Origin: Rhynchopus sp. YZ270_cl-10
Taxonomy: Eukaryota
Assembly (NCBI GenBank): GCA_964035575.1
Contig: OZ037840.1
Span: 1,860,001 to 1,899,313 of the forward strand
DNA: 39,313 nt
Reading direction: 5' to 3'
Numbering within the stretch: position 1 is the stretch's first letter; every line of letters begins with the position of its first letter. Below, piece after piece: positions 8,516 through 39,313 of the stretch. A program made the position numbers and the translations under genes. Below the pieces are notes generated by a model, which saw only the letters and a list, made by a program, of their open reading frames with translations, was not told the origin of the DNA and did not search any database.

Positions 8516-8520
8516 AAATG

Positions 8521-8671
8521 ACCCGCAAACCCGCAAACCCGCAAACCCGCAAACCCGCAAACCCGCAAACCCGCAAACCCGCAAACCCGCAAACCCGCAA
8601 ACCCGCAAACCCGCAAACCCGCAAACCCGCAAACCCGCAAACCCGCAAACCCGCAAACCCGCAAACCCGCA
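8521..8671 (-). repeat. (ACCCGCAA)n, i.e. the (TTGCGGGT)n array in inverted orientation, ~19 copies, truncated by the gap
   Basis: Perfect 8-mer tandem running into the N run. Confidence 0.97.
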
Positions 8672-8871: not shown

Positions 8872-9797
8872 GCAACACTAGCAGACAGTGCAGGTGTTAT
8901 AGCACTCACATTCTCCTTTTGTAACTCTCTCTCATCCTGTCCAAGCAAAATGTATGAAAGATAGTCCATTTTGCAATTGAGAGTTTTGAACCTCAGGCAG
9001 TATTGTGTGATGTGTTTCAGTAGAATATTTACCTCTGCAAACTGTGCATAGCAGTACGGACATGTTTTTTCGCAGGTTGCTGCATGTGATTTCATGTTTT
9101 TAACCTCGGTGAATTCTTCCCCACAGTGCTCACAGCAAAGTTTTCCTAAGCACGCATGATTTTCCTTCTGTGCCTGCAGAGGTGATGAAAAACTGCGCCT
9201 ACAAAGAGTACAGGCAGGTTGACATTTTTTCAGATGCTCCGTCAATTTGTGAATACGTTTGTATGTAGCATCGCAATTAGGACATTTGAAACGGCCGTCT
9301 GAAGTCTTATCCAGTTTTTGCTTCTTGGGGGGTGGCACATCAGGAGTAGAAGGTGCTTCCTGAGGAGAAGGAGTAGAAGGTGCTTCCTGAAACCCACCTG
9401 TGCAGCCCTTCTGATGATTGTGCCTCTCAAGGAAATTAGAAAACGTAATTCTGCACTTTGGACACGTTTTTTTGCATTTTTTTGAGCCTTTTTTGTGTGC
9501 TTTGAGCTGTTTATCTACTGCAAAGCTGGCACCACAGTTTTCACAAATGAAAGGTTTCTGCTCCTGCGCACTTCTTGGTTCATCATCTCCCCTCTTCCGT
9601 TTTGTACTGCATTCTACTGTTGTAGGTTCATTGCGCTCATCTTCTGTTTTTTCCTTTTCTTCATCATCCTCTCCAGTCTGTTTTTGAAAAGCTTCTGTAT
9701 CATCTTCTTCTGCCTCCTGTGTTGCTTCTTTTGTTGTCTTAGGCTTTTTGTCAGCACGCCCATCCGCAGACCCGCTCTCACTACGTTGCCTTTTCAT
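8872..9797 (-). CDS. N-terminal zinc-finger region of a second, diverged Helitron RepHel paralog (cut by the gap)
   Basis: MKRQRSESGS starts at 9797. CENCGASF..KAHKKGSKKCKKTCPKCR, FKCPNCDATYK..KLTEHLKKC and CLGKLCCEHCGEEF align motif by motif with the N-terminus of the 21240-27932 ORF. Confidence 0.85.
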
Positions 9798-9885
9798 ATT
9801 ATTTATGCCATGTGTTCCTATGCTAATGTATGTGAAGAAAGAAGGAATCTGGGAAACAATGTGAATAGAAATATTAATTCTCATT

Positions 9886-10001
9886 AAACTCTCTTTCGTT
9901 TTGGGGAAGTGTTTCCCTCTTCAGCTTATGTTGTCTTTGTATTAGCCTTCTTATTAGTGTGCCCATCATCAGATCTTTCCTCGCTTTCGTTGTCTTTTCA
10001 T
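9886..10001 (-). pseudogene. Decayed ~115-bp copy of the RepHel 5' coding start
   Basis: ATGAAAAGACAACG...TCTGATGATGGGCACAC...AAGAAGGCTAATACAAA...CCAAAACGAAAGAGAG matches 27932-27820, with frameshifts and stops. Confidence 0.75.
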
Positions 10002-10329
10002 TTTTTTTTTTGCAAAAAGTAAAGTACCCAGACCACTGTTATGTTAGTTTTGAATAGTTGTGATAAATTGCTAGAAATTGTATTGTAGAAAATATAAAAT
10101 GGTGGGTGGGAGAAAGTTTTGAGTTTTCAAGAAGGAAAATAAAAAAGTCTCACAACTAAGTTTTCAAAAAAAAATAATTAAAAAATGATCTTGAAAATTT
10201 TGACAAAAATTAAAACCAATCTGCATGTGCATTAAAAAAAGGGGAACCCATATTTTTGCGCAGGAAGAAGTAATTTGCACATTCTCTGCGATAAGAAATA
10301 CCCCCAAACGAAAAAAAAAAAATTATTCT

Positions 10330-10890
10330 CTAATGATGTGCTTTATTGTGCTGGAAAAGAGCACCTTTGTGTTGAAATTCCCTTCCCCTCCAAGTACTAG
10401 AGCATTCGTGAGCATAACACGTCTTTGCTATTTTTTCGTCTTCTGCTGCTTCGCGCTTTCTCTTTCTGTCTAGCTCCTGTTGAGTTTGAGTTGTTGAAAG
10501 TGATACTTGAAAAGTTGATACATACCTTTTTCATGTCCTGACACAGAAGGAACACTTCGTTCAGCTGTTTCTTGAGATCTGAGACAGTCTGTTTCACCTC
10601 TTTCAGCTCTTCAGTCACGCCAAGCTTTCTGCAGAAACAGGAATTTCCAATGCTGCGGCCTGTTCTGACGGAAGCACAGAGTCCTTCTGAGTTTGCTCCT
10701 CTGTTTTAACGCCTTGCTCCTGTACCTTCGTTAGTACTGTCTCCTTCTTCTGGGAGCACACTGGAATTGGTGGCAATTCCTCATTCTCATGAGGAGCTTG
10801 ATCCTGCACATTGAACACCGCCAACATGCTTGGTGCATCTTTCTTCTGCACAAAGGGCACTGGCTTCCGCTTAATCTTCATGGTGTTCAT
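10330..10890 (-). pseudogene. Frameshifted copy of the coiled-coil/C2H2 zinc-finger gene
   Basis: Near-identical to 28461-29025, with the same 49-nt intron (10477-10525). A net 4-nt deletion near 10619-10621 breaks the frame; a sequencing error is possible. Confidence 0.75.
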
Positions 10891-11100
10891 AGTTTTTTGA
10901 GAAATAGTTCACCTGTTTTTGGTGTGTGAGTACAAAAGTGCTATGAAAAGAGAAATGAGGGGTGAGCCAAGTTTAATTCATTTTTCTATTCAATTTTTTC
11001 GGCATTCACATTTGTAAAAATGCAAAACCTTCAGACAATAAAAAATAAGTTCTGTTCACAACCACACCAGCCTCCTACATTTTAGCGAGCTTTCTTCTTG

Positions 11101-14100
11101 TGCGGGTTTGCGGGTTTGCGGGTTTGCGGGTTTGCGGGTTTGCGGGTTTGCGGGTTTGCGGGTTTGCGGGTTTCTAGTTATTACCGTATAGAGCACTTGT
11201 AAAGTGGCACCAGGTCTTTTATGGAAGCCTGCATCCTCCGAGCAATTCTGAGGTGATATTCCTATAGTATGGGGCCTGGAAACGACAGCCCCGACTGGGG
11301 GTGCCAGTTTGTCCTATCTGGCAATATCCAAAATGGGTGCGGCATTTCACGGCTATTTTTGTGAAGGAATTTGCGATTTTTTGTGTTTCTGAGGTGCTGG
11401 GTGTATTTGTTTTGAAAATTTCAAAATGTGAGATAACCATGATTTATGGCCAGTATCCTCATAAAATGAAGCAATTGCGACCCTGGAGGTCCATATTTGA
11501 CATGTTAGGCCAAAATTAGGTGTGTAAGAGTATCGGCTTGAAAATATTTTTTTTCGTGATTTTTGGGGTCATTTTTTGGCTGGGAAAATTGGGCCACATT
11601 TAACCACAACTGCTCAAAAGGTCAAATCTGTGGCTTTAATGGACTCATTGGGAGTTTTTATGACCTGGACATGGGGGTCAGATTCCATTTTTAACATGTT
11701 GAAAATTGGTCACAAGACCCTGAGAGAAAACCCAAGGTCAAATTGACCTTGAGTACCAGGTCAAATTTGTGTGGGAAAAATTTCCAGTACATAATGTCTG
11801 ATGCTCAAAAGTACAAAATTCCTTCGGCAATGGCTTCATATGACATTTCCATAACCTGGACATGGGGATCAGACTCCACTTTTGACGACCTAAAATTTGG
11901 TCGTACACATGTGTGAGACCCCAAAAACCAGGATTTTGACCAAAAAATTTTTCCCAGCAATTTTTGCCTACAAAAAATCGGAAAAAAAAAATTTTGATTT
12001 TGGCTCTCCGGAGTCTGTGTGTGCTGTGATGGGGTCAATTTGCGCTGAGAAATGAGTATTTTTGACCTAAAATGCGTGTATCAGTTTTTACATGATTTTT
12101 GGGTTTTTTTGGGTTTTGTGTGGGTTTTTTGGTCAGTACATAATGTCTGATGCTCAAAAATACAAAATTCCTTCGGCAATGGCTTCATATGACATTTCCA
12201 TAACCTGGACATGGGGGTCAGACTCCACTTTTGACCACCTAAAATTTGGTCATACGCATGTGTGAGACCCCAAAAACCAGGATTTTGACCAAAAAATTTT
12301 TCAAGCAATTTTTGCCTGCAAAAAATCGAAAAAAAAATTTTTTGATTTTGGCTCTCCGGAGTCTGTGTGTGCTGTGATGGGGTCAATTTGCGCTGAGAAA
12401 TGGGTATTTTTGACCTAAAATGCGTGTATCAGTTTTTACATGATTTTAGAAAACAGAAAACCACCATATTTTTGACATTGATGACTAGCTTCCCAGGACA
12501 AGTCAGTACTTAGAACACTGCCGTTGTACTTCATTGGAAGCACAACGATTATCGCTTGCACACAACTTTGTCAAACATGGGAAGTCTCAAAATAAACATG
12601 CCTTCCTTAGGTTAAGATGTGTGGAAAATAGCCAAGCACACACAAGTACCATTATTTTGACACTGGTAGCAGTCTTCCCCTGAGCTGATAGTACATAACA
12701 CTGTGCAAACTATCTTATAGTCATGCAAACCTGAAAAATTAATAGCGGCGGAGCAACCACACCACAACCAGACGAGCTTGCTACATGTTGGCGAGCTTTC
12801 TTATCCCTGTGAGTAATTTTGCGGCGGATCCAAACAGCTTAACCACAAACAAATAACAACCACAGTCTCTAATATTAGCGGCGGAGCAAAATATCCTTAA
12901 ACACACTAACCCTGATAAATTTAGCAGTTTTTGTCTAATTATTTAGTGGGTAAATCCTGCTACATTTCAGTGAGCTTTTCTGATAATCTATAACTGTATC
13001 AGTCATGTCAGCAGCATGCATCAATAATTCGCGGCGTAGCAACGTGCCTCATAACTATATCCTCCCTCATTTTTTCGACTTTTCCGTGGCAATTCAGGTT
13101 TCCTATGAATGAATAGGCACATCATTTCTGAATTTGCTGAATAATACTAATCTTTTCAACACTAATTCGAGGCGGAGCCATATACCTCACAACCACACCA
13201 TCCTGCCACATTTTAGCGAGCTTTCTTCTAGTGCGGGTTTGCGGGTTTACGGGTTTGCGGGTTTGCGGGTTTGCGGGTTTGCGGGTTTGCGGGTTTCTAG
13301 TTATTACCGTATAGAGCACTTGTAAAGTGGCACCAGGTCTTTTATGGAAGCCTGCATCCTCCGAGCAATTCTGAGGTGATATTCCTATAGTATGGGGCCT
13401 GGAAACGACAGCCCCGACTGGGGGTGCCAGTTTGTCCTATCTGGCAATATCCAAAATGGGTGCGGCATTTCACGGCTATTTTTGTGAAGGAATTTGCGAT
13501 TTTTTGTGTTTCTGAGGTGCTGGGTGTATTTGTTTTGAAAATTTCAAAATGTGAGATAACCATGATTTATGGCCAGTATCCTCATAAAATGAAGCAATTG
13601 CGACCCTGGAGGTCCATATTTGACATGTTAGGCCAAAATTAGGTGTGTAAGAGTATCGGCTTGAAAATATTTTTTTTCGTGATTTTTGGGGTCATTTTTT
13701 GGCTGGGAAAATTGGGCCACATTTAACCACAACTGCTCAAAAGGTCAAATCTGTGGCTTTAATGGACTCATTGGGAGTTTTTATGACCTGGACATGGGGG
13801 TCAGATTCCATTTTTAACATGTTGAAAATTGGTCACAAGACCCTGAGAGAAAACCCAAGGTCAAATTGACCTTGAGTACCAGGTCAAATTTGTGTGGGAA
13901 AAATTTCCAGTACATAATGTCTGATGCTCAAAAGTACAAAATTCCTTCGGCAATGGCTTCATATGACATTTCCATAACCTGGACATGGGGATCAGACTCC
14001 ACTTTTGACGACCTAAAATTTGGTCGTACACATGTGTGAGACCCCAAAAACCAGGATTTTGACCAAAAAATTTTTCCCAGCAATTTTTGCCTACAAAAAA

Positions 14101-17100
14101 TCGGAAAAAAAAAATTTTGATTTTGGCTCTCCGGAGTCTGTGTGTGCTGTGATGGGGTCAATTTGCGCTGAGAAATGAGTATTTTTGACCTAAAATGCGT
14201 GTATCAGTTTTTACATGATTTTTGGGTTTTTTTGGGTTTTGTGTGGGTTTTTTGGTCAGTACATAATGTCTGATGCTCAAAAATACAAAATTCCTTCGGC
14301 AATGGCTTCATATGACATTTCCATAACCTGGACATGGGGGTCAGACTCCACTTTTGACCACCTAAAATTTGGTCATACGCATGTGTGAGACCCCAAAAAC
14401 CAGGATTTTGACCAAAAAATTTTTCAAGCAATTTTTGCCTGCAAAAAATCGAAAAAAAAATTTTTTGATTTTGGCTCTCCGGAGTCTGTGTGTGCTGTGA
14501 TGGGGTCAATTTGCGCTGAGAAATGGGTATTTTTGACCTAAAATGCGTGTATCAGTTTTTACATGATTTTAGAAAACAGAAAACCACCATATTTTTGACA
14601 TTGATGACTAGCTTCCCAGGACAAGTCAGTACTTAGAACACTGCCGTTGTACTTCATTGGAAGCACAACGATTATCGCTTGCACACAACTTTGTCAAACA
14701 TGGGAAGTCTCAAAATAAACATGCCTTCCTTAGGTTAAGATGTGTGGAAAATAGCCAAGCACACACAAGTACCATTATTTTGACACTGGTAGCAGTCTTC
14801 CCCTGAGCTGATAGTACATAACACTGTGCAAACTATCTTATAGTCATGCAAACCTGAAAAATTAATAGCGGCGGAGCAACCACACCACAACCAGACGAGC
14901 TTGCTACATGTTGGCGAGCTTTCTTATCCCTGTGAGTAATTTTGCGGCGGATCCAAACAGCTTAACCACAAACAAATAACAACCACAGTCTCTAATATTA
15001 GCGGCGGAGCAAAATATCCTTAAACACACTAACCCTGATAAATTTAGCAGTTTTTGTCTAATTATTTAGTGGGTAAATCCTGCTACATTTCAGTGAGCTT
15101 TTCTGATAATCTATAACTGTATCAGTCATGTCAGCAGCATGCATCAATAATTCGCGGCGTAGCAACGTGCCTCATAACTATATCCTCCCTCATTTTTTCG
15201 ACTTTTCCGTGGCAATTCAGGTTTCCTATGAATGAATAGGCACATCATTTCTGAATTTGCTGAATAATACTAATCTTTTCAACACTAATTCGAGGCGGAG
15301 CCATATACCTCACAACCACACCATCCTGCCACATTTTAGCGAGCTTTCTTCTAGTGCGGGTTTGCGGGTTTGCGGGTTTACGGGTTTGCGGGTTTGCGGG
15401 TTTGCGGGTTTGCGGGTTTGCGGGTTTGCGGGTTTGCGGGTTTGCGGGTTTGCGGGTTTACGGGTTTGCGGGTTTGCGGGTTTACGGGTTTGCGGGTTTG
15501 CGGGTTTACGGGTTTGCGGGTTTGCGGGTTTACGGGTTTGCGGGTTTGCGGGTTTGCGGGTTTGCGGGTTTGCGGGTTTGCGGGTTTGCGGGTTTGCGGG
15601 TTTGCGGGTTTGCGGGTTTGCGGGTTTCTAGTTATTACCGTATAGAGCACTTGTAAAGTGGCACCAGGTCTTTTATGGAAGCCTGCATCCTCCGAGCAAT
15701 TCTGAGGTGATATTCCTATAGTATGGGGCCTGGAAACGACAGCCCCGACTGGGGGCGCCAGTTTGTCCTATCTGGCAATATCCAAAATGGGTGCGGCATT
15801 TCACGGCTATTTTTGTGAAGGAATTTGCGATTTTTTGTGTTTCTGAGGTGCTGGGTGTATTTGTTATGAAAATTTCAAAATGTGAGATAACCATGATTTA
15901 TGGCCAGTATCCTCATAAAATGAAGCAATAGCGACCCTGGAGGTCCATATTTGACATGTTAGGCCAAAATTAGGTGTGTAAGAGTATCGGCTTGAAAATA
16001 TTTTTTTTCGTGATTTTTGGGGTCATTTTTTGGCTGGGAAAATTGGGCCACATTTAAGGACAACTGCTCAAAAGGTCAAATCAGTGGCTTTAATGGACTC
16101 ATTGGGCGTTTGTATGACCTGGACATGGGGGTCAGATTCCATTTTTAACATGTTGAAAATTGGTCACAAGACCCTGAGAGAAAACCCAAGGTCAAATTGA
16201 CCTTGAGTACCAGGTCAAATTTGTGTGGAAAAAATTTCCAGTACCTAATTTCTGATGCTCAAAAGTACAAATTTCCCTCGACAATCGCTTCATATGACAT
16301 TTCCATAACCTGGACATGGGGGTCAGACTCCACTTTTGACCACCTGAAATTTGGTCATACACATGTATGAGACCCCAAAAACCAGGATTTTGACCAAAAA
16401 ATTTTCCAAGCAATTTTTGCCTACAAAAAATCGAAAAAAAAAATTTTTGATTTTGGCTCTCCGGAGTCTGTGCGTGCTGTGATGGGGTCAATTTGCGCTG
16501 AGAAATGGGTATTTTTGACCTAAAATGCATGTATCAGTTTTTACATGATTTTTGGTGTTTTTGGGGTTTTTTGGTCAGTACCTAATTTCTGATGCTCAAA
16601 AGTGCAAAATTCCTTCGACAATCGCTTCATATGACATTTCCATAACCTGGACATGGGGGTCAGACTCCACTTTTGACCACCTGAAATTTGGTCATACACA
16701 TGTATGAGACCCCAAAAACCAGGATTTTGACCAAAAAATTTTCCAAGCAATTTTTGCCTACAAAAAATCGAAAAAAAAAATTTTTGATTTTGGCTCTCCG
16801 GAGTCTGTGCGTGCTGTGGTGGGGTCAATTTGCGCTGAGAAATGGGTATTTTTGACCTAAAATGCATGTACCAGTTTTTACATGATTTTTGGTGTTTTGG
16901 GAGTTTTAGGTGGGTTTTTTGGTCAGTACCTAATTTCTGATGCTCAAAAGTACAAAATTCCTTCGGCAATGGCTTCATAGGACATTTCCATAACCTGGAC
17001 ATGGGGGTCAGACACCACTTTTGACCACCTGAAAATTGGTCATACACATGTATGAGACCCCAAAAACCAGGATTTTGACCAAAAAATTTTCCCAGCAATT

Positions 17101-19945
17101 TTTGCCTACAAAAAATCGAAAAAAAAAATTTTTGATTTTGGCTCTCCGGAGTCTGTGCGTGCTGTGGTGGGGTCAATTTGCGCTGAGAAATGGGTATTTT
17201 TGACCTAAAATGCATGTACCAGTTTTTACATGATTTTTGGTGTTTTGGGAGTTTTAGGTGGGTTTTTTGGTCAGTACCTAATTTCTGATGCTCAAAAGTA
17301 CAAAATTCCTTCGGCAATGGCTTCATAGGACATTTCCATAACCTGGACATGGGGGTCAGACACCACTTTTGACCACCTGAAAATTGGTCATACACATGTA
17401 TGAGACCCCAAAAACCAGGATTTTGACCAAAAAATTTTCCCAGCAATTTTTGCCTGCAAAAAATCGAAAAAAAATTTTTTTGATTTTGGCTCTCCGGAGT
17501 CTGTGCGTGCTGTGATGGGGTCAATTTGCGCTGAGAAATGAGTATTTTTGACCTAAAATGCATGTATCAGTTTTTACATGTTTTTTGGTGTTTTCGGGGT
17601 TTTAGGTGGGTTTTTTGGTCAGTACATAATGTGCAATGCTCAAAAGTACAGAATTCCTTCGGGAATGGCTTCATAGGACATTTCCATAACCTGGACATGG
17701 GGGTCAGACTCCACTTTTGACCACCTAAAATTTGGTCATACACATGTGTGAGACCCCAAAAACCAGGATTTTGACCAAAAAATTTTCCAAGCAATTTTTG
17801 CCTACAAAAAATCGAAAAAAAAAATTTTGATTTTGGCTCTCCGGAGTCTGTGCGCGCTGTGATGACACTGGTAGCAGTCTTCCCCTGAGATGATAGTACA
17901 TAACACTGTGCAAACTATCTTATAGTCATGCAAACCTGAAAAATTAATAGCAGCGGAGCAACCACACCACAACCAGACGAGCTTGCTACATGTTGGCGAG
18001 CTTTCTTATCACAGGTGAGTAATTTTGCGGCGGAGCCAAACAGCTTAACAACTACAGTCTCTTATGTGTAAATATTAGCGGCGGAGAAAAATATCCTTAA
18101 ACACACGAACCTGCTAAATTTAGCAGTTTTTGTCTAAATCCTGCTACATTTCAGTGAGCTTTTCTGATAATCTATAACTGTATCAGTCATGTCAGCAGCA
18201 TGCATCAATAATTCGCGGCGTAGCAACGTGCCTCATAACTATATCCTCCCTCATTTTTTCGACTTTTCCGTGGCATGTCAGGATTCCTATGAATGAATAG
18301 GTCATTTCTGAATTTGCTGAATAATACTAATCTTTTCAACACTAATTCTCGGCGGAGCCATATACCTCACAACCACACCATCCTGCCACATTTTAGCGAG
18401 CTTTCTTCTAGTGCGGGTTTGCGGGTTTGCGGGTTTGCGGGTTTGCGGGTTTGCGGGTTTGCGGGTTTGCGGGTTTGCGGGTTTGCGGGTTTGCGGGTTT
18501 GCGGGTTTGCGGGTTTGCGGGTTTGCGGGTTTGCGGGTTTGCGGGTTTGCGGGTTTGCGGGTTTGCGGGTTTGCGGGTTTGCGGGTTTGCGGGTTTGCGG
18601 GTTTGCGGGTTTGCGGGTTTGCGGGTTTGCGGGTTTCTAGTTATTACCGTATAGAGCACTTGTAAAGTGGCACCAGGTCTTTTATGGAAGCCTGCATCCT
18701 CCGAGCAATTCTGAGGTGATATTCCTATAGTGTGGGGCCTGGAAACGACAGCCCCGACTGGGGGTGCCAGTTTGTCCTATCTGGCAATATCCAAAATGGG
18801 TGCGGCATTTCACGGCTATTTTTGCGAAGGAATTTGCGATTTTTTGTGTTTCTGAGGTGCTGGGTGTATTTGTTATGAAAATTTCAAAATGTGAGATAAC
18901 CATGATTTATGGCCAGTATCCTCATAAAATGAGGCAATTGCGACCCTGGAGGTCCATATTTGACATGTTAGGTCAAAATTAGGTGTGTAAGAGTATCGGC
19001 TTGAAAATATTTTTTTTTGTGATTTTTGGGGTCTTTTTTTGGCTGGGAAAATTGGGCTACATTGAACCACAACTGCTCAAAAGGTCAAATCTGAGGCTTT
19101 AATGGACTCATTGGGCGTTTTTATGACCTGGACATGGGGGTCAGATTCCATTTTTAACATGTTGAAAATTGGTCACAAGACCCTGAGAGAAAACCCAAGG
19201 TCAAATTGACCTTGAGTACCAGGTCAAATTTGTGTGGGAAAAATTTCCAGTACCTAATTTCTGATGCTCAAAAGTACAAAATTCCTTCGGCAATGGCTTC
19301 ATAGGACATTTCCATAACCTGGACATGGGGGTCAGACTCCACTTTTGACCACCTGAAATTTGGTCATACACATGTATGAGACCCAAAAACCAGGATTTTT
19401 GACCAAAATTTTTCCCAGCAATTTTTGCCCACAAAAAATCGAAAAAAAAAAATTTTGATTTTGGCTCTCCGGAGTCTGTGCGTGCTGTGGTGGGGTCAAT
19501 TTGCGCTGAGAAATGGGTATTTTTGACCTAAAATGCATGTATCAGTTTTTACATGATTTTTGGTGTTTTTGGGGTATTGCTTTTGGGGTTTTAGGTGGGT
19601 TTTTTGGTCAGTACCTAATTTCTGATGCTCAAAAGTGCAAAATTCCTTCGACAATCGCTTCATATGACATTTCCATAACCTGGACATGGGGGTCAGACTC
19701 CACACTAGAGCAGCTAAAATTTGGTCATACACATGTATGAGACCCCAAAAACCAGGATTTTGCAGCAAAAATTTTTCCCAGCAATTTTTGCCTACAAAAA
19801 ATCGGAAAAAAAAATTTTTGATTTTGGCTCTCCTGAATCTGTGTGTGCTGTGCTGGAGTCAATTTGCGCTGAGAAATGAGGAGTTTTGACCTGAAATGCA
19901 TGTACCAGTTTTAACATGATTTTTGGTGTTTTTGGTATTTTGTGT
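11101..19945. repeat. Four tandem macro-repeat units, each starting with a (TGCGGGTT)n array
   Basis: Arrays at 11101-11172 (9x), 13232-13295 (8x), 15355-15626 (34x) and 18412-18635 (28x), each followed by TCTAGTTATTACCG. Unit 1 to unit 2 offset is 2123 bp. The fourth unit is truncated near 19945. Confidence 0.95.
16241..17865. repeat. ~348-bp satellite (almost 5 copies here; two copies each at ~11787-12450, ~13910-14570 and ~19250-19940)
   Basis: The GTAC(C/A)TAAT..ATGCTCAAAA landmark recurs at 16241, 16578, 16926, 17274 and 17622. Confidence 0.93.
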
Positions 19946-29025: not shown

Positions 29026-29232
29026 AGTTTTTGAGAAATAGTTCACCTGTTTTTGGTGTGTGAGTACAAAAATGCTATGAAAAGAGAAGTGAGGGGTGAG
29101 CCAAGGTCAATCATTTTTCTATTCAATTTTTTCGGCTTTCACATTTGTAAAAATGCAAAACCTTCAGACAATAAAAAAAGGTTCTCTTCACAACCACACC
29201 AGCCTCCTACATTTTAGCGAGCTTTCTTCTAG

Positions 29233-29384
29233 TGCGGGTTTGCGGGTTTGCGGGTTTGCGGGTTTGCGGGTTTGCGGGTTTGCGGGTTTGCGGGTTTGCG
29301 GGTTTGCGGGTTTGCGGGTTTGCGGGTTTGCGGGTTTGCGGGTTTGCGGGTTTGCGGGTTTGCGGGTTTGCGGGTTTGCGGGTT
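29233..29384 (+). repeat. (TGCGGGTT)19 telomere-like array
   Basis: Perfect octamer tandem after the conserved leader. Confidence 0.97.
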
Positions 29385-29429
29385 ACTCTCTGTATATTAC
29401 CGCGTTTCAGGTAGCTGAGCCGGCATCTA

Positions 29430-32400
29430 GTTGCGGGTGTGGCGGGTCTGCGGGTCTGCGGGTCTGCGGGTCTGCGGGTCTGCGGGTGTGGTGTGTGTGG
29501 GTGTGGCGGGTCTGCGGGTCTGCGGGTCTGCGGGTCTGCGGGTCTGCGGGTGTGGTGTGTGTGGGTGTGGCGGGTCTGCGGGTCTGCGGGTCTGCGGGTC
29601 TGCGGGTGTGGTGTGTGTGGGTGTGGCGGGTCTGCGGGTCTGCGGGTCTGCGGGTCTGCGGGTCTGCGGGTGTGGTGTGTGTGGGTGTGGCGGGTCTGCG
29701 GGTCTGCGGGTCGGCGGGTCTGCGGGTCTGCGGGTCTGCGGGTCTGCGGGTGTGGTGTGTGTGGGTGTGGCGGGTCTGCGGGTCTGCGGGTCTGCGGGTC
29801 TGCGGGTGTGGTGTGTGTGGGTGTGGCGGGTCTGCGGGTCTGCGGGTCTGCGGGTCTGCGGGTCTGCGGGTGTGGTGTGTGTGGGTGTGGCGGGTCTGCG
29901 GGTCTGCGGGTCTGCGGGTCTGCGGGTCTGCGGGTGTGGTGTGTGTGGGTGTGGCGGGTCTGCGGGTCTGCGGGTCGGCGGGTCTGCGGGTGTGGTGTGT
30001 GTGGGTGTGGCGGGTCTGCGGGTCTGCGGGTCTGCGGGTCTGCGGGTGTGGTGTGTGTGGGTGTGGCGGGTCTGCGGGTCTGCGGGTCGGCGGGTCTGCG
30101 GGTCTGCGGGTCTGCGGGTCGGCGGGTCTGCGGGTGTGGTGTGTGTGGGTGTGGCGGGTCTGCGGGTCTGCGGGTCTGCGGGTCTGCGGGTCTGCGGGTC
30201 TGCGGGTGTGGTGTGTGTGGGTGTGGCGGGTCTGCGGGTCTGCGGGTCGGCGGGTCTGCGGGTGTGGTGTGTGTGGGTGTGGCGGGTCTGCGGGTCTGCG
30301 GGTCTGCGGGTGTGGTGTGTGTGGGTGTGGCGGGTCTGCGGGTCTGCGGGTCGGCGGGTCTGCGGGTGTGGTGTGTGTGGGTGTGGCGGGTCTGCGGGTC
30401 TGCGGGTCGGCGGGTCTGCGGGTGTGGTGTGTGTGGGTGTGGCGGGTCTGCGGGTCTGCGGGTCTGCGGGTCTGCGGGTCTGCGGGTCTGCGGGTCTGCG
30501 GGTCTGCGGGTCTGCGGGTCTGCGGGTCTGCGGGTCTGCGGGTCTGCGGGTCTGCGGGTCTGCGGGTCTGCGGGTCTGCGGGTCTGCGGGTCTGCGGGTC
30601 TGCGGGTCTGCGGGTCTGCGGGTCTGCGGGTCTGCGGGTCTGCGGGTCTGCGGGTCTGCGGGTCTGCGGGTCTGCGGGTGTGGTGTGTGTGGGTGTGGCG
30701 GGTCTGCGGGTCTGCGGGTCGGCGGATCTGCGGGTGTGGTGTGTGTGGGTGTGGCGGGTCTGCGGGTCTGCGGGTCGGCGGGTCTGCGGGTGTGGTGTGT
30801 GTGGGTGTGGCGGGTCTGCGGGTCTGCGGGTCTGCGGGTCTGCGGGTCTGCGGGTCTGCGGGTGTGGTGTGTGTGGGTGTGGCGGGTCTGCGGGTCTGCG
30901 GGTCGGCGGGTCTGCGGGTGTGGTGTGTGTGGGTGTGGCGGGTCTGCGGGTCTGCGGGTCTGCGGGTCTGCGGGTGTGGTGTGTGTGGGTGTGGCGGGTC
31001 TGCGGGTCTGCGGGTCGGCGGGTCTGCGGGTGTGGTGTGTGTGGGTGTGGCGGGTCTGCGGGTCTGCGGGTCTGCGGGTCTGCGGGTGTGGTGTGTGTGG
31101 GTGTGGCGGGTCTGCGGGTCTGCGGGTCGGCGGGTCTGCGGGTCTGCGGGTGTGGTGTGTGTGGGTGTGGCGGGTCTGCGGGTCTGCGGGTCTGCGGGTC
31201 TGCGGGTCTGCGGGTCTGCGGGTCTGCGGGTGTGGTGTGTGTGGGTGTGGCGGGTCTGCGGGTCGGCGGGTCTGCGGGTCTGCGGGTCTGCGGGTCTGCG
31301 GGTCTGCGGGTCTGCGGGTCTGCGGGTGTGGTGTGTGTGGGTGTGGCGGGTCTGCGGGTCTGCGGGTCGGCGGGTCTGCGGGTCTGCGGGTGTGGTGTGT
31401 GTGGGTGTGGCGGGTCTGCGGGTCTGCGGGTCTGCGGGTCTGCGGGTGTGGTGTGTGTGGGTGTGGCGGGTCTGCGGGTCTGCGGGTCTGCGGGTCTGCG
31501 GGTCTGCGGGTCTGCGGGTGTGGTGTGTGTGGGTGTGGCGGGTCTGCGGGTCTGCGGGTCGGCGGGTCTGCGGGTGTGGTGTGTGTGGGTGTGGCGGGTC
31601 TGCGGGTCTGCGGGTCGGCGGGTCTGCGGGTCTGCGGGTCTGCGGGTCTGCGGGTCTGCGGGTCTGCGGGTCTGCGGGTCTGCGGGTCTGCGGGTCTGCG
31701 GGTCTGCGGGTCTGCGGGTCTGCGGGTCTGCGGGTCTGCGGGTCTGCGGGTCTGCGGGCCTGCGGGTCTGCGGGTCTGCGGGTCTGCGGGTCTGCGGGTG
31801 TGGTGTGTGTGGGTGTGGCGGGTCTGCGGGTCTGCGGGTCGGCGGATCTGCGGGTATGGTGTGTGTGGGTGTGGCGGGTCTGCGGGTCTGCGGGTCGGCG
31901 GGTCTGCGGGTGTGGTGTGTGTGGGTGTGGCGGGTCTGCGGGTCTGCGGGTCTGCGGGTCTGCGGGTCTGCGGGTCTGCGGGTGTGGTGTGTGTGGGTGT
32001 GGCGGGTCTGCGGGTCTGCGGGTCGGCGGGTCTGCGGGTGTGGTGTGTGTGGGTGTGGCGGGTCTGCGGGTCTGCGGGTCTGCGGGTCTGCGGGTGTGGT
32101 GTGTGTGGGTGTGGCGGGTCTGCGGGTCTGCGGGTCGGCGGGTCTGCGGGTGTGGTGTGTGTGGGTGTGGCGGGTCTGCGGGTCTGCGGGTCTGCGGGTC
32201 TGCGGGTGTGGTGTGTGTGGGTGTGGCGGGTCTGCGGGTCTGCGGGTCGGCGGGTCTGCGGGTCTGCGGGTGTGGTGTGTGTGGGTGTGGCGGGTCTGCG
32301 GGTCTGCGGGTCTGCGGGTCTGCGGGTCTGCGGGTCTGCGGGTCTGCGGGTCTGCGGGTGTGGTGTGTGTGGGTGTGGCGGGTCTGCGGGTCGGCGGGTC

Positions 32401-35100
32401 TGCGGGTCTGCGGGTCTGCGGGTCTGCGGGTCTGCGGGTCTGCGGGTCTGCGGGTGTGGTGTGTGTGGGTGTGGCGGGTCTGCGGGTCTGCGGGTCGGCG
32501 GGTCTGCGGGTCTGCGGGTGTGGTGTGTGTGGGTGTGGCGGGTCTGCGGGTCTGCGGGTCTGCGGGTCTGCGGGTGTGGTGTGTGTGGGTGTGGCGGGTC
32601 TGCGGGTCTGCGGGTCTGCGGGTCTGCGGGTCTGCGGGTCTGCGGGTGTGGTGTGTGTGGGTGTGGCGGGTCTGCGGGTCTGCGGGTCTGCGGGTGTGGT
32701 GTGTGTGGGTGTGGCGGGTCTGCGGGTCTGCGGGTCGGCGGGTCTGCGGGTGTGGTGTGTGTGGGTGTGGCGGGTCTGCGGGTCTGCGGGTCGGCGGGTC
32801 TGCGGGTCTGCGGGTCTGCGGGTCTGCGGGTCTGCGGGTCTGCGGGTCTGCGGGTCTGCGGGTCTGCGGGTCTGCGGGTCTGCGGGTCTGCGGGTCTGCG
32901 GGTCTGCGGGTCTGCGGGTCTGCGGGTCTGCGGGCCTGCGGGTCTGCGGGTCTGCGGGTCTGCGGGTCTGCGGGTGTGGTGTGTGTGGGTGTGGCGGGTC
33001 TGCGGGTCTGCGGGTCGGCGGATCTGCGGGTATGGTGTGTGTGGGTGTGGCGGGTCTGCGGGTCTGCGGGTCGGCGGGTCTGCGGGTGTGGTGTGTGTGG
33101 GTGTGGCGGGTCTGCGGGTCTGCGGGTCTGCGGGTCTGCGGGTCTGCGGGTCTGCGGGTGTGGTGTGTGTGGGTGTGGCGGGTCTGCGGGTCTGCGGGTC
33201 GGCGGGTCTGCGGGTGTGGTGTGTGTGGGTGTGGCGGGTCTGCGGGTCTGCGGGTCTGCGGGTCTGCGGGTGTGGTGTGTGTGGGTGTGGCGGGTCTGCG
33301 GGTCTGCGGGTCGGCGGGTCTGCGGGTGTGGTGTGTGTGGGTGTGGCGGGTCTGCGGGTCTGCGGGTGTGGTGTGTGTGGGTGTGGCGGGTCTGCGGGTC
33401 TGCGGGTCGGCGGGTCTGCGGGTCTGCGGGTGTGGTGTGTGTGGGTGTGGCGGGTCTGCGGGTCTGCGGGTCTGCGGGTCGGCGGGTCTGCGGGTCTGCG
33501 GGTCTGCGGGTCTGCGGGTCTGCGGGTCTGCGGGTCTGCGGGTCTGCGGGTCTGCGGGTCTGCGGGTCTGCGGGTCTGCGGGTCTGCGGGTCTGCGGGTC
33601 TGCGGGTCTGCGGGTCTGCGGGCCTGCGGGTCTGCGGGTCTGCGGGTCTGCGGGTCTGCGGGTGTGGTGTGTGTGGGTGTGGCGGGTCTGCGGGTCTGCG
33701 GGTCGGCGGATCTGCGGGTATGGTGTGTGTGGGTGTGGCGGGTCTGCGGGTCTGCGGGTCGGCGGGTCTGCGGGTGTGGTGTGTGTGGGTGTGGCGGGTC
33801 TGCGGGTCTGCGGGTCTGCGGGTCTGCGGGTGTGGTGTGTGTGGGTGTGGCGGGTCTGCGGGTCTGCGGGTCGGCGGGTCTGCGGGTGTGGTGTGTGTGG
33901 GTGTGGCGGGTCTGCGGGTCTGCGGGTCTGCGGGTCTGCGGGTGTGGTGTGTGTGGGTGTGGCGGGTCTGCGGGTCTGCGGGTCGGCGGGTCTGCGGGTG
34001 TGGTGTGTGTGGGTGTGGCGGGTCTGCGGGTCTGCGGGTGTGGTGTGTGTGGGTGTGGCGGGTCTGCGGGTCTGCGGGTCGGCGGGTCTGCGGGTCTGCG
34101 GGTGTGGTGTGTGTGGGTGTGGCGGGTCTGCGGGTCTGCGGGTCTGCGGGTCTGCGGGTCTGCGGGTCTGCGGGTCTGCGGGTGTGGTGTGTGTGGGTGT
34201 GGCGGGTCTGCGGGTCGGCGGGTCTGCGGGTCTGCGGGTCTGCGGGTCTGCGGGTCTGCGGGTCTGCGGGTCTGCGGGTGTGGTGTGTGTGGGTGTGGCG
34301 GGTCTGCGGGTCTGCGGGTCGGCGGGTCTGCGGGTCTGCGGGTGTGGTGTGTGTGGGTGTGGCGGGTCTGCGGGTCTGCGGGTCTGCGGGTCTGCGGGTG
34401 TGGTGTGTGTGGGTGTGGCGGGTCTGCGGGTCTGCGGGTCTGCGGGTCTGCGGGTCTGCGGGTCTGCGGGTGTGGTGTGTGTGGGTGTGGCGGGTCTGCG
34501 GGTCGGCGGGTCTGCGGGTCTGCGGGTCTGCGGGTGTGGTGTGTGTGGGTGTAGCGGGTCTGCGGGTCTGCGGGTCTGCGGGTCTGCGGGTGTGGTGTGT
34601 GTGGGTGTGGCGGGTCTGCGGGTCTGCGGGTGTGGTGTGTGTGGGTGTGGCGGGTCTGCGGGTCTGCGGGTCTGCGGGTCTGCGGGTCTGCGGGTCGGCG
34701 GGTCTGCGGGTGTGGTGTGTGTGGGTGTGGCGGGTCTGCGGGTCTGCGGGTCTGCGGGTCTGCGGGTCTGCGGGTCTGCGGGTAGGCGGGTCTGCGGGTG
34801 TGGTGTGTGTGGGTGTGGCGGGTCTGCGGGTCTGCGGGTCTGCGGGTCTGCGGGTCGGCGGGTCTGCGGGTGTGGTGTGTGTGGGTGTGGCGGGTCTGCG
34901 GGTCTGCGGGTCTGCGGGTCTGCGGGTCTGCGGGTCTGCGGGTCTGCGGGTCTGCGGGTCTGCGGGTCTGCGGGTCTGCGGGTGTGGTGTGTGTGGGTGT
35001 GGCGGGTCTGCGGGTCTGCGGGTCTGCGGGTCTGCGGGTCTGCGGGTGTGGTGTGTGTGGGTGTGGCGGGTCTGTGGCGGGTTTGCGGGTTTGCGGGTTT
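29430..35100 (+). repeat. Composite satellite: (CTGCGGGT)n interrupted by the 24-mer GTGGTGTGTGTGGGTGTGGCGGGT
   Basis: Read directly. CGGCGGGT variants and recurrent rare variants show higher-order duplication. Confidence 0.97.
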
Positions 35101-35101
35101 G

Positions 35102-36543
35102 TGGCAAATGATGGCAAATGATGGCAAATCATGGCAAATTATGGCAAATGATGGCAAATGATGGCAAATGATGCCAATGATGGCAAATCATGGCAAATGA
35201 TGGCAAATCATGGCAAATCTTGGCAAATTATGGCAAATGATGGCAAATGATGGCAAATGATGGCAAATCATGGCAAATGATGGCAAATCATGGCAAATCA
35301 TGGCAAATCATGGCAAATGATGGCAAATCATGGCAAATGATGGCAAATCATGGCAAATCATGGCAAATCATGGCAAATGATGGCAAATCATGGCAAATGA
35401 TGGCAAATGATGGCAAATGATGGCAAATGATGGCAAATCATGGCAAATCTTGGCAAATTATGGCAAATGATGGCAAATGATGGCAAATGATGGCAAATGA
35501 TGGCAAATCATGGCAAATCATGGCAAATTATGGCAAATGATGGCAAATGATGGCAAATGATGGCAAATGATGGCAAATGATGGCAAATGATGGCAAATCA
35601 TGGCAAATCATGGCAAATCATGGCAAATTATGGCAAATGATGGCAAATCATGGCAAATGATGGCAAATGATGGCAAATGATGGCAAATGATGGCAAATCA
35701 TGGCAAATCATGGCAAATCATGGCAAATTATGGCAAATGATGGCAAATCATGGCAAATGATGGCAAATCATGGTAAATCCCAAGTTAGCCATAAAACTGA
35801 TATCCAAAAAAAATTTACAATGTTCGGAAATTTTGAACAGTATTTATGTGGGGTGGTTTTTGGGCCCAAAATATCAACACAGTGTCTCCACTGGGGAAAT
35901 TGCGTCAATTTAAGTGGGATAAGTGCTATGTGGCGAAAAAGATCGAAAATTTTGAAATTTGTTCACTACAGTGGGAAAATAGTGCAAATCATGGCAAAGC
36001 ATGGCAAATCATGGCAAATCATGGCAAATGATGGCAAATGATGGCAAATGATGGCAAATGATGGCAAATGATGGCAAATGATGGCAAATGATGGCAAATG
36101 ATGGCAAATCATGGCAAATCATGGCAAATCATGGTAAATCCCAAGTTAGCCATAAAACTGATATCCAAAAAATATTTACAATGTTCGGAAATTTTGAACA
36201 GTATTTATGTGGGGTGGTTTTTGGGCCCAAAATTTCAACACAGTGTCTCCACTGGGGAAATTGCGTCAATTTAAGTGGGATAAGTGCTATGTGGCGAAAA
36301 AAATCGAAAATTTTGAAATTTGTTCACTACAGTGGGAAAATAGTGCAAATCATGGCAAATCATGGCAAAGCATGGCAAATCATGGCAAATGATGGCAAAT
36401 GATGGCAAATCATGGCAAATCATGGCAAATTATGGCAAATGATGGCAAATCATGGCAAATGATGGGAAATCATGGCAAATGATGGCAAATCATGGCAAAG
36501 CATGGCAAATGATGGCAAATCCTGGCAAATGATGGGAAATCAT
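35102..36543. repeat. (ATGGCAAAT[G/C/T])n 10-bp minisatellite with a duplicated ~210-bp spacer (361-bp offset)
   Basis: Arrays at about 35102-35774, 35984-36135 and 36345-36543. The spacer GGTAAATCCCAAGTTAGCC occurs twice. Confidence 0.96.
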
Positions 36544-37004
36544 TGACACTCCGTGACACTTTTCAGAACACTTCTGATACTGATGCCCCTGAAGTTGTAG
36601 AGACCTCAGTCGCTGGAGTGAATACGCTTCTACCCGATGTGAGCAGCTTGCAGGCTACTCACAAAAATATTCTTGGGGATCACATTGCAATGGTGGTGGT
36701 GATGGAGTACCAGAAGAGGGGTCTGCCTCATGCTAATGCAATTCTTTGGAACAACAACAGAACATCACCGAAGAATCCTTTAAATGTGGGTCACATCGTA
36801 CAACTCCCTGGACCAGCACACCCAAACCTCTACAAAGCTTTCAGTCAGTATCTGATGAACAACAGGTGGATGGTTCATTACAATCTTCTCCTGAAATATC
36901 GGCGCCACAGAAACAATGAGGAAGTGCGCGGGGTCCTTGTTGTTAAGTATTTGTTTAAATACTTATTCAAGGGTGAGCCTGTGACAGGTCTATTGATGCA
37001 ATGA
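36543..37004 (+). pseudogene. Internally deleted Helitron Rep fragment (HUH changed to H-A-N), opposite orientation to the main gene
   Basis: KNILGDHIAMVVVMEYQKRGLPHANAILWNNNRTSPKNP...HPNLYKAFSQY|NRWMVHYN...KYLFKYLFKGE aligns to the main Rep. First in-frame ATG at 36690. Confidence 0.85.
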
Positions 37005-37328
37005 TTTGTGTGGTAGAGTTGTGAACATTAAGGATAAAATAAGAAAACAAATAAAAAATAGCGATAAGTGGGGAGATGTCTTTGTGGGCTTGCGGGTTTG
37101 CGGGTTTTTTTGTCTCAGTTAATTTTTGTTTTTGCAAAGGAAATCTCTTGTGATGAAGAAAACATTATTTTTGGGGAGTTTGTTGTTAATTGCATAAAAA
37201 GAAAAGAAAAAAAGAAAAAGAAAAAGATAAAAGTTGAAGTGAAGTTACAATTACTGGCAGTAAAGCAAATAAAAAACTTCAACACCAAAACACAGTTCAA
37301 ATGATCTAAGAAGTGTTTATTTTTCTAT

Positions 37329-37445
37329 TTTAAATTGTTTTTTGTTTGGGTTTGTATTGGATACTTCTTCCCAGCCGGAGAGAAATCTCTTGTGATGAAG
37401 AAAACATTGTTTTTGGGGAGTTTGTTGTTAATTGCATAAAAAAAA
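37329..37445. repeat. Inverted copy of the RepHel 3' flank (20415-20525); partial second copy at ~37138-37200
   Basis: TTCTTCCCAGCCGGAGAGAAATCTCTTGTGATGAAGAAAAC..TTTTTGGGGAGTTTGTTGTT.ATTGCATAAAA is the reverse complement of the 20415-20525 segment. Confidence 0.9.
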
Positions 37446-37716
37446 AGGGAAAAAAAGAAAAAGAGAAAAGGTGTATCTACATTTATCAGAGCAAACCCGC
37501 AAACAAAATAACATATGGGGTGTCACAGTTTTTGTTTTTTTTTATTCATTGTTTTTAGTGCCTGCTTCCGTCAGAGGTGTTTGTCAAAAATGAAATATGT
37601 CAACAAAAACAAAGAACACTTTAAATTTCATTTTTTACTACTAGTAAAGTAATTTTACGCTTCCAAAACACACACACTACCTCAGTCAATCATACACATA
37701 TTCATACACAAAAAAA

Positions 37717-38190
37717 ATGCCCAAAACCCAAAGGCAACAGCTGAAGCACGACATTGACACGTTTTTGGACCTTCCTGTCACAGCTGGCCCTATAGAGCTA
37801 GCCCTGCACAAGGCAGTGGTGGCTGTCCTCTACTGCGGAGGAATTAATGAATCCGTGTGTGCAACACTGCAATCCACTGCAATGACAAGTGACGATTATG
37901 GTGCCACATTCGAGTACAAGATCGGCGGGAAGCAAAAAAGATTCTCAATTCCAGTGGGAACTCCGGCTTACGATGCCGTTCACAACTATGTGAGCGTGCG
38001 TACCGGGTTCAAAAGCCCCTACTTCTTCCTGGAATGTGACGCCACAAAATGCTTTCTGAGAGACAGGAGGATGCCAGTGAAAGCAGTGCGCATGATCCTG
38101 CAAAGAATGGCTGTTACCGTAGGAACTAATCCTGCAGGGTACCGTCTAAGCGACCTCCGCATGATGAGCATGACGCGCAGGCCGTACTAA
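37717..38190 (+). CDS. Degenerate tyrosine-recombinase (Crypton-like) catalytic-domain protein, 157 aa
   Basis: Intact ORF with AAAAAAAATG context. KAVVAVLYCGGINES (Box I-like), KQKRFSIP, NYVSVR..SPYFFL, AVRMILQRMAVTVG and NPAGYRLSDLR (Box II HxxR-like) occur in the right order and spacing, but catalytic residues are altered. Confidence 0.6.
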   Translation: MPKTQRQQLKHDIDTFLDLPVTAGPIELALHKAVVAVLYCGGINESVCATLQSTAMTSDDYGATFEYKIGGKQKRFSIPVGTPAYDAVHNYVSVRTGFKSPYFFLECDATKCFLRDRRMPVKAVRMILQRMAVTVGTNPAGYRLSDLRMMSMTRRPY

Positions 38191-38673
38191 ATATTTTTTT
38201 CTACCATGTCATCTCTCTCTTTAAATAAAAGAAATAACAATACGTTTGTGGGGTGTGGGTTTCTAGGGTTTCGGGTTTTTTCGTAGTAGTAGTATTTTAA
38301 AGTGTCTTCAATATTTTGGTAGTAGTAGTATTTTAAATCGTCTTGAATTTTTTGGTAGTGGTAGTATGCAGGTATTTTAAAACATCTTCAATCCGAAAAA
38401 AAAGAGCAATAAAAACAAAACAAAAAAAAAGAGAAAAATGTCACAACAAAAACAAAGAAAAGAATCTATATATTTTTTTCCTTTTTTACAAAACATTTTA
38501 CCCCTCCCAAATGACACACATCACAACAGAGTAGTAACAATATGTTAGAGTAAAATGAAATGGAAAAGGTGAGACAGCATATTAGATAGTTGTAATCTAA
38601 CATAATTACGCTTCAGGCACACCAGCCTGCTATCACACACACCAGCTAGATAACGATGGTTGCTCACTTCTCG

Positions 38674-39313
38674 TGCGGGTTTGCGGGTTTGCGGGTTTGC
38701 GGGTTTGCGGGTTTGCGGGTTTGCGGGTTTGCGGGTTTGCGGGTTTGCGGGTTTGCGGGTTTGCGGGTTTGCGGGTTTGCGGGTTTGCGGGTTTGCGGGT
38801 TTGCGGGTTTGCGGGTTTGCGGGTTTGCGGGTTTGCGGGTTTGCGGGTTTGCGGGTTTGCGGGTTTGCGGGTTTGCGGGTTTGCGGGTTTGCGGGTTTGC
38901 GGGTCTGCGGGTTTGCGGGTTTGCGGGTTTGCGGGTTTGCGGGTTTGCGGGTTTGCGGGTTTGCGGGTTTGCGGGTTTGCGGGTTTGCGGGTTTGCGGGT
39001 TTGCGGGTTTGCGGGTTTACGGGTTTGCGGGTTTGCGGGTTTACGGGTTTGCGGGTTTGCGGGTTTGCGGGTTTGCGGGTTTGCGGGTTTGCGGGTTTGC
39101 GGGTTTGCGGGTTTGCGGGTTTGCGGGTTTGCGGGTTTGCGGGTTTACGGGTTTGCGGGTTTGCGGGTTTGCGGGTTTGCGGGTTTGCGGGTTTGCGGGT
39201 TTGCGGGTTTGCGGGTTTGCGGGTTTGCGGGTTTGCGGGTTTGCGGGTTTGCGGGTTTGCGGGTTTGCGGGTTTGCGGGTTTGCGGGTTTGCGGGTTTGC
39301 GGGTTTGCGGGTT
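38674..39313 (+). repeat. (TGCGGGTT)80 array running off the window end; candidate telomere
   Basis: The G-rich strand runs 5'->3' toward the end, with rare TACGGGTT and CTGCGGGT variants. The repeat is certain; telomere function is inferred. Confidence 0.9.

What the first reader, a model, noticed from the sequence alone, without database searches (positions are those of the whole stretch)
8872..39313. Candidate telomere-associated Helitron system: tandem RepHel cassettes docked on telomere-like G-rich arrays
Seen: two co-oriented [ZnF gene + RepHel] cassettes about 18.1 kb apart both begin at the same leader-(TGCGGGTT)n junction (11100 and 29232). The region between them consists of leader/array macro-repeats, and the window ends in 80 copies of the octamer. 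Established: PIF1 helicases unwind G-quadruplexes, HUH Reps drive rolling-circle amplification, and yeast Y' and Drosophila HeT-A/TART form tandem arrays at chromosome ends. Canonical Helitrons are usually dispersed at AT dinucleotides. Inference: a Helitron family that targets, carries or amplifies telomere-like repeats, possibly contributing to end maintenance.
Basis: partly seen in the sequence, partly recalled or inferred. Interest (0 to 1): 0.85.

Follow-up and report, generated by a model that had tools for sequence, protein, structure and literature searches.

The report
Helitron chain nested in telomere-like repeats
A chain of rolling-circle transposons (one with an intact gene, three gene-less copies, one cut by an assembly gap) sits end to end between runs of a G-rich 8-letter repeat that is likely this organism's telomere repeat, which would make it a second, likely independent case of such transposons targeting chromosome tips.

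Summary
The anatomy is real, with corrections. Right of a 200-N gap lie five co-oriented units, each bounded by (TGCGGGTT)n tracts of 9, 8, 34, 28 and 19 units, and an 80-unit tract ends the window. Unit D (18636-29232) carries an intact 2,230-aa RepHel. A, B and C are ORF-less relatives. The first 'cassette' is only the first 337 aa of a sister RepHel (66% identical), cut by the gap. The zinc fingers belong to RepHel; the small upstream gene is not a ZnF. Units read TC...CT(A/T/C)G|T at a T|T site of the octamer, in one phase. In two runs the left end is seen only behind the octamer. Family genes recur on tens of contigs. Best reading (0.6): Helitrons inserting into the telomeric repeat, as published for Paramecium (PMC13085455), but from an HLE1-like lineage. 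Not shown: that the octamer is the telomere, that copies are confined to ends, or any role in end maintenance. An opposite-polarity tract also ends a contig (8520-8671), and no terminal hairpin beats shuffles.

The parts
8872..11100 (.). Unit Z: right arm of an element of the sister subfamily (P0005 type), cut by the assembly gap; right end CTTG|T
8872..9884 (-). N-terminal ~337 aa (C2H2 fingers) of RepHel P0005 type; rest lost in the N gap
   Evidence: 100% to P0005 1-337; zf-C2H2
10397..10890 (-). Small accessory ORF, frameshifted by a 4-bp loss in this copy
11101..11172 (+). (TGCGGGTT)9 tract
11173..13231 (+). Unit A: ORF-less element, TC...CTAG, with ~2.5 copies of a 348-bp satellite
13232..13295 (+). 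(TGCGGGTT)8 tract
13296..15354 (+). Unit B: identical to A
15355..15626 (+). (TGCGGGTT)34 tract, 5 variant units
15627..18411 (+). Unit C: ORF-less element with 4.7 satellite copies
18412..18635 (+). (TGCGGGTT)28 tract
18636..29232 (.). Unit D: complete 10.6-kb putative autonomous Helitron, TC...CTAG on + strand, genes on - strand
   Evidence: joints linking its two arms in other runs
20561..21222 (-). Broken OTU protease remnant behind RepHel, 38-44% identical to the fused C-terminal domain of P0013
   Evidence: OTU at the same place in P0008 and P0011
21240..27932 (-). Intact RepHel, 2,230 aa: C2H2 fingers, HUH-Y2 Rep, PIF1 helicase
28528..29025 (-). 165-aa accessory ORF of unknown function (not a zinc finger); one variant identical on 32 contigs
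29233..29384 (+). (TGCGGGTT)19 tract
29431..35100 (+). 5.7-kb variant array: (GCGGGTCT)n mixed with a 19-bp GT-rich unit
35101..38673 (.). Mosaic unit E: (TGGCAAATGA)n, 361-bp repeat, decayed Rep fragment on + (36513-37004), inverted pieces of D, a 157-aa recombinase-like ORF (37717-38190), and a right end homologous to D's (CTCG|T)
38674..39313 (+). Terminal (TGCGGGTT)80, G-rich strand running 5'->3' to the window end; candidate telomere
8520..8671 (-). Octamer tract of opposite polarity ending the contig left of the gap

Best explanation
This is a head-to-tail chain of Helitrons, one with an intact RepHel gene and several gene-less relatives, each bounded by tracts of the octamer TGCGGGTT, which is likely the host's telomere repeat and likely the insertion target of this family. 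Shown: unit boundaries, phase, intact RepHel, ORF-less derivatives, many copies on other contigs. Inferred mechanism: RepHel nicks 5' of the T of the TC end and of a T at GGGTT|TGCGGG on the G-rich strand (favoured about 60:40 over the mirror reading, AC...CTAG at C|A on the C-rich strand). Its PIF1 domain would unwind the G-rich DNA. Each insertion would split a telomeric tract, leaving an internal tract of variable length while a new tract is extended beyond it. Weak terminators would allow read-through and, together with unequal exchange between tracts, duplicate neighbours such as A = B. On this reading the RepHel gene of D and Z is antisense to the element. The family would be a tenant of a safe niche, with telomerase (not examined) still making the repeat.
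For: All 6 tracts right of the gap have the G-rich strand on +. The four tracts bounded by A-D ends are whole multiples of GCGGGTTT (9, 8, 34, 28), so removing a unit restores a perfect tract with no duplication. Tract length varies while the flanking units are 90-100% alike, the argument used for Paramecium (PMC13085455 section 18). Unitigs across the left end start 8 nt (X1) and 17 nt (X4) inside the octamer with no other letters, and A-type right-end unitigs run 22 nt into it at similar depth (3,610 vs 3,597; 2,048 vs 1,873). Other, different element ends also abut the octamer among the 12 of 40 loose ends shown. Deletion joints link D's two arms: 20627->29004 in 2 of 4 runs and 21580->28684 in 1 of 4. 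RepHel family: 41 member sequences in 3 clusters, one identical on 11 contigs; small ORF identical on 32 and 14 contigs. Octamer runs are joined to internal breakpoints of RepHel ORFs on other contigs in 3 of 323 proteins held, the window's own aside (P0132, P0138, P0167), as telomerase healing or read-through would give. The window's RepHel and small ORF are on record on one 569,661-bp contig, so the short window is probably the end of a longer scaffold. There are no TTAGGG dimers in the window. Helraiser needs its TC end, tolerates loss of the 3' end, and uses TT as a prominent alternative target (PMC4778049 passages).
Against: No genome was held, so no copy was mapped to a chromosome end and the terminal position of the window is inferred. 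A 19-unit tract of opposite polarity also ends a contig at 8520-8671, so contigs break at these tracts whatever their polarity. Co-polarity of the six tracts follows from co-oriented elements and is not independent. The octamer occurs as an ordinary repeat in 78 unrelated metagenome stretches with no homology to the window, and none of six spellings of it is in the paper library. None of 7 candidate terminal 45-mers folds better than shuffles (135-500 of 500 shuffles as stable). Right ends are CTAG in 4 of 6, CTTG and CTCG in the others. E's left boundary does not match the A-D end. P0132 and P0138 have the octamer in opposite orientations relative to the same RepHel gene. Logan contigs drop rare variants, and 28 of 40 loose ends were not shown.
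Confidence: 0.6

Rival explanations
1. The octamer is a microsatellite carried by or amplified with the elements (HINE/DINE-1 style); the chain is an internal or merely subtelomeric satellite-like array, and the window end is an assembly break.
For: Non-autonomous Helentrons carry microsatellites of 3-8 nt and satellite arrays (PMC7492417 passages). A-D carry a 348-bp satellite. An opposite-polarity tract ends a contig. The octamer is a plain repeat elsewhere. P0167 shows a unit end plus ~21 octamers joined into another RepHel gene, which fits co-movement.
Against: HINE microsatellites lie inside the element behind a subTIR/IR. The HINE-like element at 7767-8520 has that layout with (CA)n inside, whereas A-D have no terminal inverted repeat (longest end-to-end match 6 nt) and the octamer lies outside TC...CTAG. 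Several unrelated ends abut the same octamer. The terminal tract is the longest pure one.
Confidence: 0.22
2. The Helitrons maintain chromosome ends: RepHel-driven insertion or rolling-circle read-through adds elements plus octamer to the tips, supplementing or replacing telomerase.
For: Intact, recently multiplied RepHel (identical on 11 contigs); head-to-tail polarity; octamer joined to internal breakpoints. The same possibility is raised, untested, for Paramecium (PMC13085455 section 18).
Against: A long pure tract, not an element, forms the end. Junctions are never direct CTAG-TC joins as in Helraiser circles. TERT presence could not be examined. In Drosophila biarmipes telomeric Helitrons are dead fragments (PMC6581046 passages).
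Confidence: 0.1
3. The order of units is partly an assembly artefact: a small repeat-rich contig attached at a gap, with A = B falsely duplicated.
For: 200-N gap beside the chain; A and B identical over 2,059 bp; no laid contig spans the whole stretch.
Against: Tract lengths and variant units differ between junctions; C and D differ from A/B by 4-10%; both junction types exist in runs of two studies.
Confidence: 0.08

Closest known systems
Paramecium aurelia telomere-inserting Helitrons (Arnaiz et al. 2026, PMC13085455; abstract, sections 10, 13, 14, 15, 18 and passages read)
   Different: That clade is reported as more divergent from HLE1/HLE2 than they are from each other, with 9-10-kb ORFs, CCAA ends and proposed C-strand insertion. 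This RepHel is 6.7 kb, aligns along its core with canonical Helitrons (33-37%; Helraiser E 2e-143), keeps TC/CTAG-type ends, probably inserts on the G strand, and has a downstream OTU. No Paramecium sequence could be placed in my tree.
Canonical Helitrons, HLE1 (Helraiser, PMC4778049; HELIANO, PMC11417382; passages read)
   Same: ZnF-Rep-PIF1 transposase, Rep motif 2 with GLPH, 5' TC and 3' CTAG in A-D, T at the 3' flank, no target duplication.
   Different: Target T|T in a fixed octamer rather than dispersed A|T; no significant 3' hairpin; CTTG/CTCG ends in Z and E; OTU downstream of RepHel where HELIANO reports it upstream; a separate clade with EYQ and QGAAGTGKT motifs.
Subtelomeric Helitron-derived repeats of Hydractinia (PMC11934779, abstract only) and Drosophila biarmipes (PMC6581046, passages)
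   Same: Helitron material and satellites near chromosome ends.
   Different: Those are degenerate fragments or tandem satellites, randomly oriented in D. biarmipes; here an intact gene and phase-exact junctions in a short repeat.
Telomere-targeting retrotransposons SART1/TRAS (PMC7265360, search listing and abstract start only), HeT-A/TART and yeast Y' (recalled)
   Same: Polarised chains of elements within or in place of telomeric repeats.
   Different: Reverse-transcriptase or recombination based; this uses an HUH-Y2/PIF1 transposase.

Membership tests
Helitron (RepHel transposon) | HUH Rep with two tyrosines fused to a PIF1 helicase | tested here: met
   Helitron_like_N E 2e-33, PIF1 E 2e-55; motifs FLTMTCNP, EYQKRGLPHCH, KYLFKY, Walker A/B intact
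Helitron (RepHel transposon) | No target-site duplication; non-autonomous copies share the ends | tested here: met
   Removing a unit leaves a perfect tract; A-C share 1.3 kb of the left end and about 45 bp of the right end with D
HLE1 (canonical) | 5' TC | tested here: met
   A-D begin TCTAG on +; rests on the G-strand reading, since the T could belong to the tract
HLE1 (canonical) | 3' CTRR | tested here: inconclusive
   CTAG in 4 of 6 right ends, CTTG and CTCG in 2
HLE1 (canonical) | Stable hairpin just before the 3' end | tested here: not met
   0 of 7 terminal 45-mers beat dinucleotide shuffles, in either reading
HLE1 (canonical) | Insertion at A|T | tested here: not met
   Site is T|T in the octamer on the G strand, or C|A on the C strand
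HLE1 (canonical) | Transposase falls inside the HLE1 clade | tested here: inconclusive
   Best named hits are plant and animal Helitrons; in a quick tree of 22 rows the 12 clade members separate from 10 canonical-type rows at 100% SH-aLRT, with no HLE2 or Paramecium row and no outgroup
HLE2 (Helitron2/Helentron) | Short asymmetric terminal inverted repeats | tested here: not met
   Longest match between the first and last 100 nt of D is 6 nt; none at the ends among the 25 longest pairs listed
HLE2 (Helitron2/Helentron) | AP endonuclease or DUF6570 domain | tested here: not met
   Neither among the Pfam matches of P0001 or 8 relatives
Paramecium-type telomeric Helitrons | Flanked on both sides by a G/T-rich short repeat of one polarity and variable length | tested here: met
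Paramecium-type telomeric Helitrons | The repeat is the host telomere and copies are confined to chromosome ends | not testable with these tools
   No genome held; contig look-up closed
Paramecium-type telomeric Helitrons | Transposase belongs to the 'HLE Paramecium' clade | not testable with these tools
   No such sequence was available as a tool result; supplements 5 and 9 (terminal alignments) could not be read. Likeness to HLE1 argues against.

The most novel reading that the evidence does not exclude
An HLE1-derived Helitron clade has independently learned to nick the single-stranded G-rich overhang of a so far unreported telomere repeat (TTTGCGGG) and, by read-through of weak terminators, moves element plus repeat onto chromosome tips, so that a rolling-circle transposase lengthens and heals ends alongside or instead of telomerase.
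Probability: 0.12. Interest if true: 0.85.

Novelty: new variant of a known kind. Interest (0 to 1): 0.55.

Why it matters
Site-specific Helitrons at telomeres were found in my searches only for Paramecium. A second case with a conventional, intact HLE1-like transposase, near-canonical ends and a simple 8-bp target would show convergence. It would also give a tractable system for asking how an HUH transposase picks a target and whether Helitrons can extend chromosome ends. The octamer itself may be an unreported telomere motif (0 papers for six spellings; tables and supplements of telomere databases were not searched).

Tried and rejected
Whole genome: none held. Junction pattern in metagenome contigs: 0 hits; octamer x4 in viral contigs: 0; octamer x3 in metagenome contigs: 78 stretches, none with tblastn or blastn similarity to the window. 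Earlier scan findings: nothing in 3 look-ups. No RNA holder listed, so expression is open. Summed read depths were not used as copy numbers. Host lineage: all top hits of the LRR gene are unnamed ENA proteins and the atlas did not answer, so the host is not identified; 'diplonemid' was only a recalled lead. A term search of one diplonemid genome note found no telomere or Helitron passage; a D. papillatum paper mentions Helitron and TATE ORFs but no telomere motif; diplonemid+telomere+TTAGGG gave 0 papers. Terminal hairpins: not significant. I first favoured the C-strand reading and moved to the G-strand one, because CT.G|T is what all six right ends conserve and Helraiser nicks before T; the question stays open. 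Paramecium supplements: no LTS/RTS text found in 7 files; files 5 and 9 unreadable and may bear on the comparison of ends. The 157-aa ORF: single-sequence model too poor (pLDDT 50), fold search uninformative, representative search still queued at submission. The careful tree did not finish; the quick tree is cited. Rejected: 'separate ZnF gene', 'two copies of one cassette', HLE2 membership for A-D, plain rolling-circle concatemer.
Full report
Observation. The window has one 200-N gap (8672-8871). Right of it, tracts of TGCGGGTT stand at 11101 (9 units), 13232 (8), 15355 (34), 18412 (28), 29233 (19) and 38674 (80, to the last base), all G-rich on +. The DNA between tracts forms units. Z (8872-11100) is cut by the gap. 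A and B (2,059 bp) are identical, C is 2,785 bp, and D is 10,597 bp. A mosaic region E follows a 5.7-kb variant array. D carries an uninterrupted 2,230-aa ORF on the minus strand with C2H2-type fingers, Helitron Rep and PIF1 domains and intact catalytic motifs. It also has a 165-aa upstream ORF of no known family and a broken OTU remnant behind RepHel that matches the fused C-terminal domain of the relative P0013.

There is no separate ZnF gene. The ZnF ORF in Z is the first 337 aa of a sister RepHel, identical to P0005; D and P0005 are 66% identical. Only their outer 0.9 kb is near-identical (95%). The 'leader' is one end of a unit and TCTAGTTATTACC is the other, so the tracts lie between elements.

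Unit definition. A-C share 1.3 kb of D's left arm and its last 45 bp. In other sequencing runs D's arms are joined across deletions (20627->29004 in 2 of 4 runs; 21580->28684 in 1 of 4), so both ends belong to one element and ORF-less derivatives exist elsewhere. The four tracts between A-D ends are whole multiples of the octamer. Removing a unit leaves a perfect tract, so there is no target duplication.

Which end is which. On the G strand A-D read TC...CTAG|T at T|T, with Z and E ending CTTG|T and CTCG|T; the gene is then antisense. On the C strand they read AC...CTAG|A at C|A with a sense gene. No candidate 3' end has a hairpin better than shuffles (0 of 7). I favour the G strand about 60:40. 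All six right ends keep CT.G|T; degenerate copies of the right-end motif lie upstream in A-C like abandoned terminators; and Helraiser needs its TC end, tolerates 3' loss and uses TT as an alternative target (PMC4778049, passages). Against it, CTAG is also invariant at the left end of A-D and of another end seen in reads. Gene direction does not decide the point: a second RepHel family in the same contig set appears to run on the G strand (P0167, P0320), and reversed ORFs are known in Paramecium.

Is the octamer a target? In two runs from two studies the left-end unitig begins 8 and 17 nt inside the octamer with no other letters, and right-end unitigs run 22 nt into it. No alternative flank appears among the 12 of 40 loose ends shown, while ends of other elements do abut the same octamer. 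Such contigs drop rare variants. Tract length varies between near-identical units. A HINE-like element in the same window (7767-8520; 11-bp asymmetric inverted repeat) keeps its (CA)n microsatellite inside, as described for oyster HINEs (PMC7492417, passages); the octamer lies outside the RepHel-family ends.

Is it the telomere? For: the longest pure tract ends the window with the G strand outward and has a degenerate variant array inside it. The window's proteins are recorded on one 569,661-bp contig, so this short window is probably a scaffold end (inference). There is no TTAGGG dimer. Octamer runs are joined to internal breakpoints of RepHel genes on other contigs (3 of 323 proteins held; junctions read from protein only). 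Against: an opposite-polarity tract also ends a contig at 8520-8671. The octamer is an ordinary repeat in 78 unrelated metagenome stretches, and no paper in the library spells it. No genome was available. I put this at about 0.7.

Spread. The RepHel family has 41 member sequences in three clusters, one identical on 11 contigs. The small ORF is identical on 32 and, in a shorter form, 14 contigs. This shows recent multiplication over many scaffolds, but not where on them.

Relatives. The best named hits are canonical plant and animal Helitrons at 31-33% and Helraiser at E 2e-143. In a quick, unrooted tree of 22 rows, the window's family and 8 unnamed relatives form a clade apart from 10 canonical-type rows; no HLE2 or Paramecium row was available. 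HELIANO reports OTU upstream of RepHel (PMC11417382, passages); here it is downstream.

Comparison and verdict. It works like the Paramecium telomeric Helitrons (PMC13085455; sections read): repeats on both sides, internal satellites, ORF-less copies, reversible ORF. It is probably not of that clade, which is described as more distant from HLE1 than HLE2 is. It is a Helitron, but fails two HLE1 tests (hairpin, A|T target) and the HLE2 tests, so I file it as an HLE1-like variant. Searches for other Helitrons targeting telomeric repeats listed only Paramecium plus degenerate subtelomeric cases (Hydractinia, abstract; D. biarmipes, passages). A role in end maintenance is untested and given about 0.1. 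Interest 0.55: a real, testable and likely convergent case of a recently published phenomenon, whose key premise needs the full assembly.

Noticed in passing
window 37717-38190 (+): 157-aa ORF, identical on 16 contigs, with weak likeness to XerC-type tyrosine recombinases (E 8e-5, far under the cut-off) and no catalytic Arg at the aligned place. One cluster member is fused to a segment of the second RepHel family, so it may be a passenger of that family.
   Followed up: partly
window 5951-6725, 7502-7770, 7767-8520: HINE/HLE2-like non-autonomous element with a terminal hairpin, an 11-bp asymmetric inverted repeat and internal (CA)n. One copy abuts the opposite-polarity octamer tract, another lies in a 23-bp minisatellite.
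   Followed up: partly
window 28684-28687: Apparent breakage hotspot in the small ORF: a diverging C-rich/G-rich octamer insert (joint in X1; protein P0293), a deletion joint and a truncated variant (P0294) all fall here.
   Followed up: no
window 29385-29430: A 46-bp piece between the pure tract and the variant array ends in CTAG and shares TATTACCG with the A-D left end; possibly a minimal element.
   Followed up: no
window 29431-35100: Higher-order variant array: 421 GCGGGTCT units, 41 GCGGGTCG and 77 copies of a 19-bp GT-rich unit.
   Followed up: partly
window 344-1459 (+): BspA-type leucine-rich-repeat gene of a very large in-genome family (668 hits at E<=1e-20, the 120 listed all unnamed).
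   Followed up: partly
window 5702-5822 and 2517-3044: A second octamer tract, (AGCTCCAC)15, and a 262-bp tandem duplication.
   Followed up: no
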